DNA from: the human T2T-CHM13v2.0 reference genome, Homo sapiens
Assembly (NCBI RefSeq): GCF_009914755.1
Contig: NC_060937.1
Strand: one strand, 5' to 3'
Length of the DNA stretch: 64,000 nt
This document shows positions 1 to 5,019 of this stretch, one piece after another (within the stretch, counting starts at the first letter, position 1; each line of letters begins with the position of its first letter). The notes under the pieces were generated by a model. The model made no database searches, was not told where the DNA came from, and saw nothing but the letters and a program-made list of their open reading frames with translations. Made by a program: the position numbers and the translations under genes.

Positions 1-155
1 TGGCACATGCCTGTAATCCCAGCTACTCGGGAGGCTGAGGCAGGAGAATGTCTTGAACCCGGATCCAGGAGGCAGAGGGGTTGCAGTGAGCCAAGATCAC
101 ACCACTGCACTCTAGCTTGGCCAACAGAGCGAGACTGTCTCAAAAAAAAAAAAAA
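1..155 (+). mobile_element. Alu (AluS-type) right arm and poly(A), cut by the window start
   Basis: GCCTGTAATCCCAGCTACTCGGGAGGCTGAGGCAGGAGAAT...GAGACTGTCTC followed by A14; small insertion (GGATCCA) after TTGAACCC. Confidence 0.95.
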
Positions 156-900
156 GTTACTGCTAAATGTTGGAAAGAATATAGATGAATGAGAATCTCA
201 TCCACTGCTGGTAGGAGTGTTACCTGGTAGAGTCTCTTTGCAAAACAGTTTAGTCTTACCAGTAAGGGTAGAATTTGTGCATAGGATATGACCAGCTCTT
301 CCCCTCCTTGATACAACTCCTGGAAAATTTCCTGCACAAGCGCATTTAAGACATGTACAAAAATGTTCACAGCAGCATGATTCTGAGTAGTCAAGAACCA
401 GGAAAATTCAAGTGTTCACCAACTATAAAATGTACAAATAAATATTGATGTATTTATACTATATGTTCATAGCATGGTATGTAGTATAGCATAGAGTATA
501 TGTTATGTATATAGTATACATAAATAAATGAAAGCTGCAAGTGTCAACATGGATGAATCTTAAAATCTGTTGAGTGAAAGAAGCAAGCCATGTAAACACA
601 CATTCTATGATTTTATTTATGTAGGGCTCAACAAAAACAGTAATTGTTCAATGATACACATACATTAAAGATATACATATAAAGCAAAATTATGAAAAGA
701 AGTAATTAATGAATTTATCACAGTGATCATCCCTAGAGGGAAATAAGTGGTTATCAGGGAGAGGTACTCATGGGTTCTTTAATCTACTGATAACATTTCT
801 TTCTCTCTATATATTCTATATAAAAAGTAAATAAAATAATATGTTTTATATACTATTTGGCATGTATTATATAGCATATAATTAAAAATAAACAGTTTTA
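156..900 (+). mobile_element. Old L1 (L1ME/L1MC-type) 3' fragment
   Basis: AAATGTTGGAAAGAAT...CACTGCTGGTAGGAGTG...AAAATGTTCACAGCAGCAT...CAACATGGATGAATCT...TGTTGAGTGAAAGAAGC are typical L1M 3'-end motifs. Confidence 0.7.
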
Positions 901-1779
901 GACGAAACAAAAATATTGCCTGAAACGTAACTACTAATTTATCAAAAGCCTTTGCTCTTAGGATTTTCTTTGTAGCTTAGAGATAAATCCATAGAATATA
1001 GTGTCTTGCTGGTTTGTTACTTAAAATGAACCAGTATTTTAAAAGACATTTCACTGTTTAAGAATGGGGTCATGAGTTTCAAGGCTGCTTCTCTGATCAA
1101 GAAAAAAAAGTGAAGATAATAATTTGGCTTTGGTTCCATCCCACACTTAAGTTACTAAAGAACATTAGTCCGCACTCGGCCATCTGCCATGCAATGTGCA
1201 GCCAGGGCAGGGAAAGTAACTCGTGTGAATTCAGAAACTTATCTCTCTGACATTCTGGCCCAGAAAAGAGAACCAGAAATAGAGTACTACCCGTTGAGCC
1301 AACATTTTCCCACAGTCTGTCTCAAATTTCATAGCCCTTGTTAAGTAAGTTGATAATATCAGTCCTATTCCCAGTGAGCAAATGTTAATGTCATTTAAAT
1401 AGAATCTGAGGAAAGGATTTGATGAACCAAAAAGCTAACTGAAAGTATTGAGAGATCAAGAGTGGAGAATATATGAAGAAACACAAATTATTTGCTCTAC
1501 CATTTTGCAAATTGTCTAACCCTGTACTTAAGGGAGAGAAGGCAAAGAGGGTCTGACATCATTTTTTTTCCATTAAGCAGGTGCAAATCTCTCTGGTATG
1601 TCCATTTTATTTTCTTATTTCTCTGTTCTCTTTCCGGTTTTTTTGTTTTATTCTTCCCAGTTTTTTAAAAAACTCTTAATATTGTTAGCTCCAGATCCAT
1701 TCAGTAGGGACAAGTTAAGGTTAAAGATTAAGTAGGGTATTTGTTTTTTTCCTTTTGCTTCAAATACTGATTACTACAG

Positions 1780-1841
1780 GCTGGGTGTGAGAACAGATAG
1801 CTCAATTTTCATTGCTGCTTGCATCAGGACCTAGAAACAGA
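1780..1841 (+). other. Possible non-coding exon (62 bp)
   Basis: Pyrimidine tract, TACAG acceptor and AGA|GTAAGC donor; stops in all three frames. Confidence 0.2.
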
Positions 1842-2990
1842 GTAAGCAAATACATGGTCTAAATTGTGCCTCTTTGGTGGAAAGCCTTTATGTTAAATAT
1901 GTCTTGTTAAGTCTTAAGTAAATGTTAAGTAAATAAATCGCAGAACTTGAGGAAACAACAAAATGGGAAGTTAGTATGGTCCATTTTCACATCTTAAGTC
2001 CAGTCCCATGAACACAGCTTACAACTTTCTGTTTGGTCATGTAAGGGGATAAAAACATCCACATTGTAAATTCTAAAATATCATATTCTGTGACTTGGAG
2101 ATAAGATTTTTTGATATTCCAGTTCTAGGAGCAAAATGAATAATTCTGCATGATTGCTAAAAGGAATAGCAGATAAATTGTATAAATCATTATTTCTTTG
2201 AATGAGCTCTACTCACATTAAATAAAAAGTCACAGTAATTTCCTAGAGAAAAAAATTGGTATATATTGAAGTTTCCTGTAGTTGGAATTTTTGACCAACT
2301 TCCATGTGCATCTCCAAAACCGTATGCTAACCCAAAGAAGTGAAATTCAAGACATTGAGAAAGAGTGATGATCAGGGCGGGAAGATACATCTGCAAAAAT
2401 ATTTTCTACCATTGGCTTGAATATTTTACCAATAAAATATACTTACAGAGGACTACTGTTAAAATACAAATTACCTTGAACAAGTAAGACATTAGGTACC
2501 AAGACATATATAATAACAGTCCAGTGTGGCTATGGTTTTCAAAGTAAGGAGCCAAAGTGAGAAAAATGTGAATATGTCAGCATTCTACAAATATGGTAAG
2601 AGAGGAAATTAGTATAAATTACACCGAGAGCAATCCAGCTTGATATTTTGCTTTTAGATCCTTTGTTAGTCTTCTTGTAGGGTTTTCCATTTTAATAAAG
2701 GATCAAATTTTAAAGGGATTAAGTTCTTATGGGGAGGGGTCAGAATTTCAGGCTTCACCCAGTGGGTGAATGAGTTATCTGGAGGAACACTGAAGCATTT
2801 TTCATCCCTTTCAAAGTCACCCTAAGGAGACAGCTGCTTACCCCTGTTCTAGGGGATGATTATATTTTAGTGAAAGGGTGATTATAAGCTTGAGGCTCAC
2901 TATCTTTTGAAGCATGTAAACAAGTTCTAAGGCAGTTTCCAAAAGCGGAGTTCAAAGTTCAAATAGGTAGTTAGCTCCCTGATGTAAATA

Positions 2991-3069
2991 TTAGGCTGGT
3001 GCAAAAGCAACTGCAGTTTTGCCATTACTTTTAATGGCAAAAACTGCAGTTGCTTTTGCACCAGCCTAA
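2991..3069. mobile_element. MADE1 MITE (Hsmar1-derived, miR-548-type hairpin)
   Basis: TTAGGCTGGTGCAAAAG...CTTTTGCACCAGCCTAA, a 79-bp palindrome with TA target duplication on both sides. Confidence 0.95.
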
Positions 3070-3193
3070 TACTTTGAAGCACAGCACACATTTTTATGTT
3101 TGCTCTGGTGTATCTGATAATAGTCTCATTTAAATATTTCTCCCACTTAGGAAGCTTGCCTCATGGAAACAAGGAGTAGGAAGAGCACTGAGT

Positions 3194-4584
3194 ATGTGTT
3201 GTTTTTTTTTTAATACTTTAAGTTCTGGGGTACATGTGCAGAATGTGCAGGTTTGTTATATAGGTATACACGCACCCATCAACCCATGGTATACATTAGG
3301 TATTTCTCCTAATGCTATCCCTTCTCTAGCCCCCCATCCGCCGACAGGCCCCGGTGTGTGATGTTCCCCTCCCTGTGTCCATGTGTTCTCATTGTTCAAC
3401 TCCCAGTTAGGAGTGAGAACATGTGGTGTTTGGTTTTCTGTTTTTGTGTTAGTTTGCTGAGAATGACAGTTTCCAGCTTCATCCGCATTCCTGCAAAGGA
3501 CATGAAGTCATTCTTTTTTTATGGCTGCATATTATTCCATGGTGTATATGTGCCACATTTTCTTTATCCAGTCTATCATTGATGTGGATTTAAGTTGGTT
3601 CCAAGTCTTTGCTATTGTGAACTGTGCTGCAGTAAACAGGTGTGCATGTGTCTTTACAGTGTAATGATATATAATCCTTTGGATATATACCCAGTAATGG
3701 GATTGCTGGAATGAAATTGTGGTTCTAGATCCTTGAGGAATCGCCACACTGTCTTCCACAATGGTTGAACTAATTTACACTCCCATCAACAGTGTAAAAG
3801 TGTTCCTATTTCTCCACATCCTCTCCAGCACCTGTTGTTTCCTGACTTTTTAATGATCACCATTCTAACTGGTGTGAGATGGTATCTCATTGTGGTTTTG
3901 ATTTGCATTTCTCTAATGACCAGTGATGATGAGCTTTTTTTCATATGTTGGCTACATGTCTTCTTTTGAGAAGTGTCTGTTCATATCCTTTGCCCAATTT
4001 TTGATGGGGTTGTTTGTTTTTTCTTGTAAATTTGTTTAAGTTCTTTGTAGATTCTGGCTATTAGCCCTTTGTCAGATAGATAGATTGCAAAAAATTTCTC
4101 CCATTCTGTAGGTTGCCTGTTTACTCTGATGGTAGTTAATTAGATCCCATTTGTCAACTTTGACTTTTGTTGTCATTGCTTTTGGTGTTTTAGTAATGAA
4201 GTCTTTGCCCATGCTTTTGTCCTCAATAGTACCGCCTAGGTTTTCTTTTAGGGTTTTTATGATTTTAGGTCTTACATTTAAGTCTTTAATCTATCTTGAG
4301 TTAATTTTTGTAAAAGCTGTAAGGAAGGCATCCAGTTTCAGTTTTCTGCATATGGCTAGCCGGTTTTCCCAACACTATTTATTAAATAGGAAATCCTTTC
4401 CCCATTGTTTGTTTTTGTCAGGTTTGTCAAAGATCAGATGGTTATAGGTGTGTGGTGTTATTTCTGAAGCCTCTGTTCTGTTCCATTGGTCTATATATCT
4501 GTTTTGGTACTGGAACCATCCTGTTTTGGTTACTGTAGCCTTGTAGTATAGTTTGAAGTCAGGTAGCATGATGCCTCCAGCTTT
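3194..4584 (-). mobile_element. 5'-truncated L1PA (L1PA7/8-like): ORF2 C-terminus, 3'UTR and poly(A)
   Basis: TTTAAGTTCTGGGGTACATGTGCAGAATGTGCAGG 3' end; minus frame reads [21 protein letters not shown]...[14 protein letters not shown] (L1 ORF2). Confidence 0.93.
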
Positions 4585-4585
4585 A

Positions 4586-4678
4586 TTTGCAAATGAGACT
4601 CTACCAGGTAACCCTCCTACCAGCAGTGGATGAGATTCCCTTGATCTATATTCTTTCCAACATTTAACAGTATCTAAC
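4586..4678 (-). repeat. Inverted copy of positions 156-244 (3' flank of the Alu at the window start)
   Basis: Reverse complement aligns to 156-244 with about 4 substitutions and 3 indels over about 90 nt. Confidence 0.92.
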
Positions 4679-4975
4679 TTTTTTTTTTTTTTTTTTGAGA
4701 TGGAATCTTGCTCTGTTGCCCAGGCTGGAGTGCAATGGCATGATCTTTGCTCACTGCAACCTCCACCTCCCAGGTTCAAGCCATTTTCTTGCCTCAGCCC
4801 CCCGAGTAGCTGGGATTACAGGCATGTGCCAACATGCCCAGCTAATTTTTGTCTTTTTAGTAGAGACAGGGTTTCACCATGTTGGCCAGGCTGGTCTTGA
4901 CTCCTGACCTCAAGTGATCACCTGCCTTGGCCTCCCAAAGTGCTGGGATTACAGGCATGAGCCACCGCGCCCAGC
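4679..4975 (-). mobile_element. Full-length AluS (Sx/Sz-like), 5' part of a chimeric insertion
   Basis: Complete dimer with T18 tail; no TSD of its own; AGCACTGAGT at 4976-4985 matches 3184-3193. Confidence 0.95.
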
Positions 4976-5019
4976 AGCACTGAGTTTTGAAGAGGAAGGC
5001 AACACTGTTTGAAAGTGGC

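What the first reader, a model, noticed from the sequence alone, without database searches (positions are those of the whole stretch)
1..4985. Alu + unique flank + L1 chimeric insertion whose donor lies about 3 kb away
Seen: one TSD (AGCACTGAGT at 3184-3193 and 4976-4985, right copy continuing TTTT/GA, an L1 endonuclease-type site) brackets, on the minus strand, a full-length AluS, its A-tail, about 90 nt of non-Alu sequence and 1.4 kb of L1PA 3' end. The 90 nt are a >90% identical copy of 156-244, the flank right after the Alu at 1-155, where the old L1M host continues normally. Both Alus share the non-consensus AATG.CTTG, and several CpGs decayed in opposite directions. The flank/L1 junction falls in GCAAA, present in both. 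Established: L1 reverse transcriptase makes template-switch chimeras (U6-L1, Alu-L1). Inference: during L1 insertion the RT jumped to a read-through Pol III transcript (or DNA) of the neighbouring Alu. This would identify a source Alu and imply local template capture. It also creates an inverted repeat of at least 240 bp.
Basis: partly seen in the sequence, partly recalled or inferred. Interest (0 to 1): 0.75.

Follow-up and report, generated by a model that had tools for sequence, protein, structure and literature searches.

The report
Alu-L1 insertion carrying neighbour's copied flank
An old Alu-plus-L1 insertion in human DNA contains a 93-base copy of the sequence behind another Alu 3 kb away; the two Alus differ at a family-marking site, so the patch was likely copied during DNA repair guided by Alu similarity, a curious one-off with no known function.

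Summary
The structure is real. One 10-nt target-site duplication encloses, on the minus strand, a full-length Alu, A18, a 93-nt copy (92% identical) of the neighbouring Alu's TSD and 3' flank, and 1.37 kb of L1 3' end. Homology stops at the Alu 5' ends, so this is not an ordinary inverted duplication.

The 'source Alu' claim is not supported. The Alus differ at a 2-nt left-arm indel that splits Alus genome-wide into two large groups. They share no non-CpG variant and are no more alike (84.6%) than other Alus in the window. The shared AATG.CTTG is uncommon (2.6%) and weakly suggests that only the right arm came from the neighbour.

Best reading (inferred, 0.5): L1 inserted into the tail of a resident Alu, whose free end paired with the neighbour, copied past its tail, and joined the L1 cDNA by 2-4 nt microhomology. 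A later repair event (0.25) or RNA template switches (about 0.18) remain possible. Each ingredient is published; this locus is absent from the 452-chimera table. Interest 0.3.

The parts
1..141 (+). Neighbour Alu, short-spacer group (AluSg-like, label recalled); starts upstream at window -144, preceded by its 18-nt 5' TSD copy
142..155 (+). Neighbour Alu A14 tail
156..244 (+). Template of the captured patch: neighbour's 3' TSD copy (now with a 4-nt deletion) and 3' flank, part of an old L1 host
3184..3193 (.). TSD copy at the 3' (tail) end of the insertion
3194..3211 (-). A-rich tail (A10 plus 8 decayed bases)
3212..4585 (-). 5'-truncated L1 3' end, 1.37 kb, 83-89% identical to genome relatives (L1PA7/8-like, label recalled)
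4586..4678 (-). 93-nt copy of the neighbour's TSD and flank; 4 substitutions and 3 indels against 156-244; joined to L1 through a 2-4 nt A-rich overlap
4679..4696 (-). A18 tail of the inserted Alu
4697..4975 (-). Full-length Alu, long-spacer group (AluSx/Sz-like, label recalled); right arm possibly derived from the neighbour
4976..4985 (.). TSD copy at the 5' end, followed by TTT/GA (L1 endonuclease-type site)

Best explanation
One target-site duplication encloses an Alu, a 93-base copy of the neighbouring Alu's flank and an L1 end; the copy likely arose when an L1 inserted into the A-tail of a resident Alu and that Alu's broken end used the similar Alu 3 kb away as a DNA repair template. Inferred steps: (1) a long-spacer Alu inserted first and made the TSD. 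(2) L1 endonuclease cut in its A-tail and reverse transcription stopped after 1.37 kb. (3) The opposite free 3' end (Alu body plus A-run), perhaps trimmed back into the right arm, paired in register with the neighbour Alu and was extended through its tail, TSD and about 75 nt of flank. (4) The extended end let go and joined the L1 cDNA by a 2-4 nt overlap. Shown: anatomy, direction of copying, different Alu groups, limits of homology. Inferred: order of events, DNA template, coupling to the L1 insertion. No function is implied.
For: The patch begins exactly at the neighbour Alu's tail, in register with the inserted Alu. That is 1 of 190 A/T runs of 4 or more within 5 kb either side, and it is what Alu-to-Alu pairing predicts. 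The left arms belong to different groups: 6 of 6 fetched best hits of the insert are long-spacer, and 24 of 29 fetched best hits of the neighbour are short. Right-arm sharing is mildly raised: both carry G195, seen in 9,636 of 369,583 motif matches. An ad hoc likelihood ratio of about 7 favours a shared right arm over independence, a value reached by 3 of 72 control pairs; it is about 3 for a whole-Alu copy before any cost for the indel. The junction is a short overlap. Precedent, passages read: one-ended invasion finished by end joining with 1-5 bp microhomology in human cells (PMC8047440); 22 L1 insertions with templated genomic DNA under 250 bp (10.1101/2024.08.27.596794); 3 insertions with sequence templated near the site (PMC11702581).
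Against: The clocks do not show the L1 to be the youngest part. The L1 differs from the majority of 25 relatives at 4.9-6.0% of non-CpG sites, the two Alus at 3.1% and 3.5%. The flank pair has 4 substitutions in about 88 sites where 8.6-10.6 are expected from the L1 clock (P 0.02-0.07). The difference between L1 and inserted Alu alone is not significant (Fisher P 0.08-0.30), and the references are not equivalent. Published somatic templates are described as lying within 15 bp of the site, not 3 kb away. The two Alus were probably a few percent diverged, and 300 bp is short for strand invasion (general knowledge). The right-arm signal rests on one uncommon variant and CpG decays, and the segment was picked after looking at the data. 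No outgroup genome was available.
Confidence: 0.5

Rival explanations
1. The same Alu-guided DNA copying, but later and unrelated to retrotransposition. An Alu/L1 composite (chimera or nested L1) already existed, broke at the Alu-tail/L1 joint, and was repaired by one-ended invasion of the neighbour and end joining, possibly losing some L1 5' sequence.
For: It gives the same product. The flank pair looks younger than the L1 (4 of about 88 against 8.6-10.6 expected). Alu/L1 composites under one TSD are common: 452 in PMC13174262.
Against: It needs a second independent break exactly at this joint. Right arm plus flank together (14 of about 202 sites, 3.5% per copy) overlap the L1 interval of 3.8-6.2%.
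Confidence: 0.25
2. RNA route with two switches in one insertion. ORF2p jumped from L1 RNA to a read-through (or antisense nascent) transcript of the neighbour Alu, copied flank, tail and perhaps the right arm, then jumped by A-tail or Alu similarity to a second, long-spacer Alu RNA and finished at its 5' end.
For: One TSD and same-sense parts, as in template-switch chimeras (PMC13174262 sections 12 and 15). There is no TTTT before position 611, so a Pol III read-through RNA would contain the patch. The full-length 5' end suits an RNA template.
Against: It needs two rare switches and capture of an RNA from a locus 3 kb away. No evidence of transcription is available, and no gene is annotated in the window.
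Confidence: 0.12
3. One reading: the whole Alu plus flank was copied from the neighbour's read-through RNA, making the neighbour an identified source Alu; the left-arm indel arose afterwards by gene conversion or an exact 2-nt indel.
For: Homology ends at the Alu 5' end. G195 and several CpG decays are shared; likelihood ratio about 3 over independence before the indel is costed.
Against: The spacer difference matches two genome-wide groups. There are 0 shared non-CpG variants. Left-arm sharing is at or below background: 64 of 68 and 47 of 68 incidental Alus do as well. Identity of 84.6% equals that to unrelated window Alus, 84.2% and 85.0%.
Confidence: 0.06
4. Capture by A-run microhomology alone, possibly from the empty neighbour site before the neighbour Alu inserted; the Alu-to-Alu register would be coincidence.
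For: The patch starts with the neighbour's pre-insertion AAAA and keeps an intact TSD.
Against: There are 190 A/T runs of 4 or more within 5 kb either side, but the patch starts at the one that carries an Alu tail. The weak right-arm sharing points the same way.
Confidence: 0.05

Closest known systems
Alu/LINE-1 chimeric insertions (Law and Burns 2026, PMC13174262; 452 cases)
   Same: Full-length sense Alu 5' of a truncated L1 under one TSD of 7 nt or more; AluS with L1PA6-8 pairs occur in its chr13 rows.
   Different: A 93-nt non-Alu patch from a neighbouring locus lies between Alu and L1; co-insertion could not be tested here; the locus is not in Table S4.
L1 insertions with locally templated genomic DNA (10.1101/2024.08.27.596794; PMC11702581)
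   Same: Short (<250 bp) copy of nearby genomic DNA inside an L1 insertion, explained by an SDSA-like step.
   Different: Germline and ancient; the template lies about 2.9 kb from the target rather than within 15 bp; its start is fixed by an Alu tail, which suggests homology guidance.
One-ended homologous invasion finished by end joining (BIR/EJ, PMC8047440)
   Same: Homology at one end only, short copying beyond it, 1-5 bp microhomology at the exit joint.
   Different: Shown in a reporter with identical 1.3-kb homology; here about 300 bp of slightly diverged Alu, and the second end would be an L1 cDNA.
3' transduction (PMC4859970, passages)
   Same: The copy carries the source locus's tail, 3' TSD and flank.
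   Different: A transduced flank ends in its own poly(A); here it runs into an L1 body, and the Alu's left arm does not match the putative source.

Membership tests
L1-mediated (TPRT) insertion | Flanking TSD of 7-20 nt | tested here: met
   10-nt exact copies at 3184-3193 and 4976-4985
L1-mediated (TPRT) insertion | Endonuclease-type site and 3' A-tail | tested here: met
   TTTT/GA at 4985-4990; A10 plus decayed bases at 3194-3211
Alu/LINE-1 chimera | Full-length sense Alu 5' of truncated L1 within one TSD | tested here: met
Alu/LINE-1 chimera | Alu directly joined to L1 | tested here: not met
   93-nt patch between them
Alu/LINE-1 chimera | Alu and L1 arrive together across species | not testable with these tools
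   no primate relatives are held; sequence clocks are inconclusive
Source Alu and daughter copy (Alu 3' transduction) | Same subfamily-marking positions in source and copy | tested here: not met
   long versus short left-arm spacer
Source Alu and daughter copy (Alu 3' transduction) | Shared private variants | tested here: inconclusive
   0 non-CpG; one uncommon C>G at a CpG (2.6% of motif matches); ad hoc ratio about 7 for the right arm only, 3 of 72 controls
Source Alu and daughter copy (Alu 3' transduction) | Source TSD and flank carried along; homology ends at the Alu 5' end | tested here: met
Locally templated insertion | Short copy of nearby genomic DNA, native at the donor, single other copy | tested here: met
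Locally templated insertion | Microhomology at the joints | tested here: inconclusive
   2-4 nt A-rich overlap after allowing 1-2 later changes; A-run or Alu homology at the other joint
Ordinary inverted segmental duplication | Homology extends beyond the repeat on both sides | tested here: not met
   upstream flanks unrelated

The most novel reading that the evidence does not exclude
During one germline insertion L1's reverse transcriptase captured the nascent read-through RNA of an Alu 3 kb from its target and then finished on Alu RNA. The locus would be a fossil of local RNA capture at the insertion site, marking one AluS copy as transcribed at that time and predicting a findable class of Alu-flank-L1 composites whose donors lie next door.
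Probability: 0.18. Interest if true: 0.62.

Novelty: new variant of a known kind. Interest (0 to 1): 0.3.

Why it matters
If the best reading holds, neighbouring Alus can serve as repair templates for the free end of an L1 insertion, kilobases away, and leave a searchable signature: Alu, A-tail, another Alu's TSD and flank, then L1. That would extend the 'templated insertion' class seen in tumours and cell lines to the germline. It also warns that a copied flank behind an Alu does not identify a source Alu, and that an Alu and L1 under one TSD need not be an RNA chimera. As a single old event in a stretch with no annotated gene it has no evident function.

Tried and rejected
Ordinary inverted duplication: rejected, the upstream flanks are unrelated. 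Independent Alu inserted in front of the L1 with its own TSD: none seen around 4679-4975. In-register recombination between the old L1 host and the young L1: no alignment found between the host and the L1 part. A closer source Alu elsewhere: the best hits among 40 scored of 5,641 candidates are 88-90% and end at or near the tail; the C17 pair L004/L005 shares several variants but has unrelated flanks and was selected for similarity. GCAAA as the junction: needs more edits than AA or AACA. Dating by clocks: inconclusive. The background was limited to 103 Alus found in fetched loci and the window (68 incidental, 35 selected by similarity; 46 of the 68 kept as S/Y-like). 6 of 31 L1 rows were dropped as partial or older matches. 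A genome-wide screen for the same architecture was not run. Rfam gives nothing on the insertion itself. Literature searches listed no title or abstract start describing this locus or Alu-guided capture at an L1 joint; two searches returned nothing, and subscription journals are mostly not covered. Gilbert et al. 2005 and Richardson and Jasin 2000 are recalled only and were not read. A-to-I editing across the arms was not testable.
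Full report
Observation. The window shows AGCACTGAGT at 3184-3193 and 4976-4985, the right copy continuing TTT/GA. On the minus strand, between the copies, lie an Alu (4975-4697), A18, 93 nt of non-Alu sequence (4678-4586), 1.37 kb of L1 3' end and an A-rich tail. 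Searching the genome with the 93 nt scored three candidates: itself, window 155-244 (92%, E 3.5e-27) and an 80% match on C3 (the tool warns that counts are lower bounds). The Alu plus patch matches the neighbour over 384 nt at 85%.

Direction and limits. The neighbour Alu starts at window -144 and is flanked by an 18-nt TSD. The C3 relative of the old L1 host aligns on both sides of the neighbour Alu (62% upstream, 74% downstream, contiguous in L012), while the copy holds only the downstream part, so 156-244 is the native copy. The copy keeps the TSD intact, whereas the neighbour's 3' copy has lost 4 nt. Upstream of the two Alu 5' ends the sequences are unrelated, which rejects a plain inverted duplication.

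Are the two Alus source and copy? I aligned both to 103 Alus taken from the window and fetched loci. The inserted Alu reads GATCACTTGAGG, the neighbour GATCACAAGG. This 2-nt difference splits the 68 incidental Alus into 33 long, 30 short and 5 other; 6 of 6 fetched best hits of the insert are long and 24 of 29 of the neighbour short. Genome-wide the two exact motifs occur 49,764 and 12,035 times. From recall, long is the Sx/Sz side and short the Sg/Sc/Y side. The Alus share 7 non-majority letters, all at CpG-type sites, and no non-CpG variant; each has 7-8 private non-CpG changes in 226 sites. Their identity, 84.6%, equals that of the insert to two unrelated window Alus, 84.2% and 85.0%.

G at position 195 without the Y-type context occurs in 9,636 of 369,583 motif matches, 2.6%, and both Alus have it. 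Right-arm CpG decays agree more than usual: 7 same and 3 opposite, reached by 5 of 46 and 2 of 46 control pairs. An ad hoc likelihood model gives about 7 for a shared history from position 136 on, 5.5 from 66, 3.1 for the whole Alu before costing the indel, and 0.3 from 201; 3 of 72 control pairs reach 7 (the control statistic has an extra term for shared non-CpG variants). This is weak to moderate evidence that the right arm, but not the left, came from the neighbour while it was young. It is compatible with chance at about the 4% level, and the segment was chosen after inspection.

Junction. In 15 of 23 L1 relatives the bases before GCTGGAGG are AAGAACAAA (contexts). The fewest-edit joins use a 2-nt AA overlap with one later C>T; AACA needs one more edit; GCAAA needs a further loss of about 5 nt and is not among the 14 best joins.

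Dating. The L1 differs from the majority of 25 relatives (6 of 31 rows dropped) at 78 of 1,309 non-CpG sites, 64 of them private. The flank pair has 4 substitutions and 3 indels; 4 is low for the L1 clock (P 0.02-0.07) and fits the Alu clock (P 0.31). Right arm plus flank give about 3.5% per copy, overlapping the L1 interval. All parts fall in one broad period; their order is not resolved, and the lean is slightly against the L1 being youngest.

Mechanism. A patch that begins exactly at another Alu's tail, behind an Alu of a different group, is what pairing of two Alus followed by copying beyond the homology would leave; 190 shorter A/T runs were available within 5 kb either side. An L1 cutting in an Alu tail supplies both the free Alu-A end and the partner end, and gives Alu and L1 under a single TSD (inference from TPRT geometry). 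In human cells one-ended invasion is usually finished by end joining with 1-5 bp microhomology (PMC8047440, passages). I put this at 0.5, the same copying at a later break at 0.25, two RNA switches at 0.12, the whole-Alu copy at 0.06 and A-run capture at 0.05. These weights are judgement. A read-through RNA is not excluded: the first TTTT after the neighbour is at 611.

Comparison with print. Law and Burns (PMC13174262; abstract, sections 10, 12, 49 and part 1 of sections 15 and 34 read) list 452 Alu/L1 chimeras. A search of its 6 readable supplements for the TSD strings and expected coordinates found nothing. Table S4's consecutive chr13 rows go from 76.98 to 83.74 Mb; I viewed 92 of 188 chr13 occurrences in that file, and the hg38 position near 79.6 Mb is estimated from a recalled gene coordinate; mmc7.pdf was too large to read. 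Templated L1 insertions are described in 10.1101/2024.08.27.596794 (passages: 22 cases, under 250 bp, within 15 bp) and PMC11702581 (passages and section 7: 3 cases). Their supplementary figures, which I did not see, may show longer-range or Alu-guided cases. PMC4859970 (passages) and PMC4888836 (passages) gave background only.

Verdict. A real and well-preserved composite, a new variant of known kinds (Alu/L1 composite plus locally templated patch). The striking claim, an identified source Alu, fails on the subfamily marker. No gene is annotated here and no function is suggested. Interest 0.3; primate orthologues would settle the order of events.

Noticed in passing
window 2989-3071: Near-perfect hairpin (35-nt arms) matching Rfam mir-548 above the gathering score on both strands (97.4 and 92.9 against 90); looks like a MADE1 miniature transposon (label recalled); no gene is annotated here.
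   Followed up: partly
window 3212-4585: The L1 carries four deletions of 5 nt or more (29, 18, 8, 5), while none of 25 relatives has more than two (relatives were selected for similarity). The neighbour Alu also has several indels. Unexplained; may reflect local instability.
   Followed up: partly
window 5090-5212: 74% match to a stretch of L023; resembles the end of an old MLT1-type LTR fragment (label recalled).
   Followed up: no
L009 about 790-1084 (window about -4210 to -3917): Another full-length Alu, on the minus strand, 83% identical to the inserted Alu and 79% to the neighbour.
   Followed up: no
L004:1501-1803 and L005:1501-1801 (C17): Two near-identical loci 3.7 Mb apart, with an Alu bearing a 9-nt left-arm insertion and several variants shared with the inserted Alu; probably a segmental duplication, and selected by similarity.
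   Followed up: partly
window 9130-9419 and 25090-25364: Alu pieces in unusual arrangement: a short inverted Alu piece at about 9349-9417 next to an Alu at 9130-9352, and two Alu left-arm-like pieces in tandem at 25090-25358.
   Followed up: no
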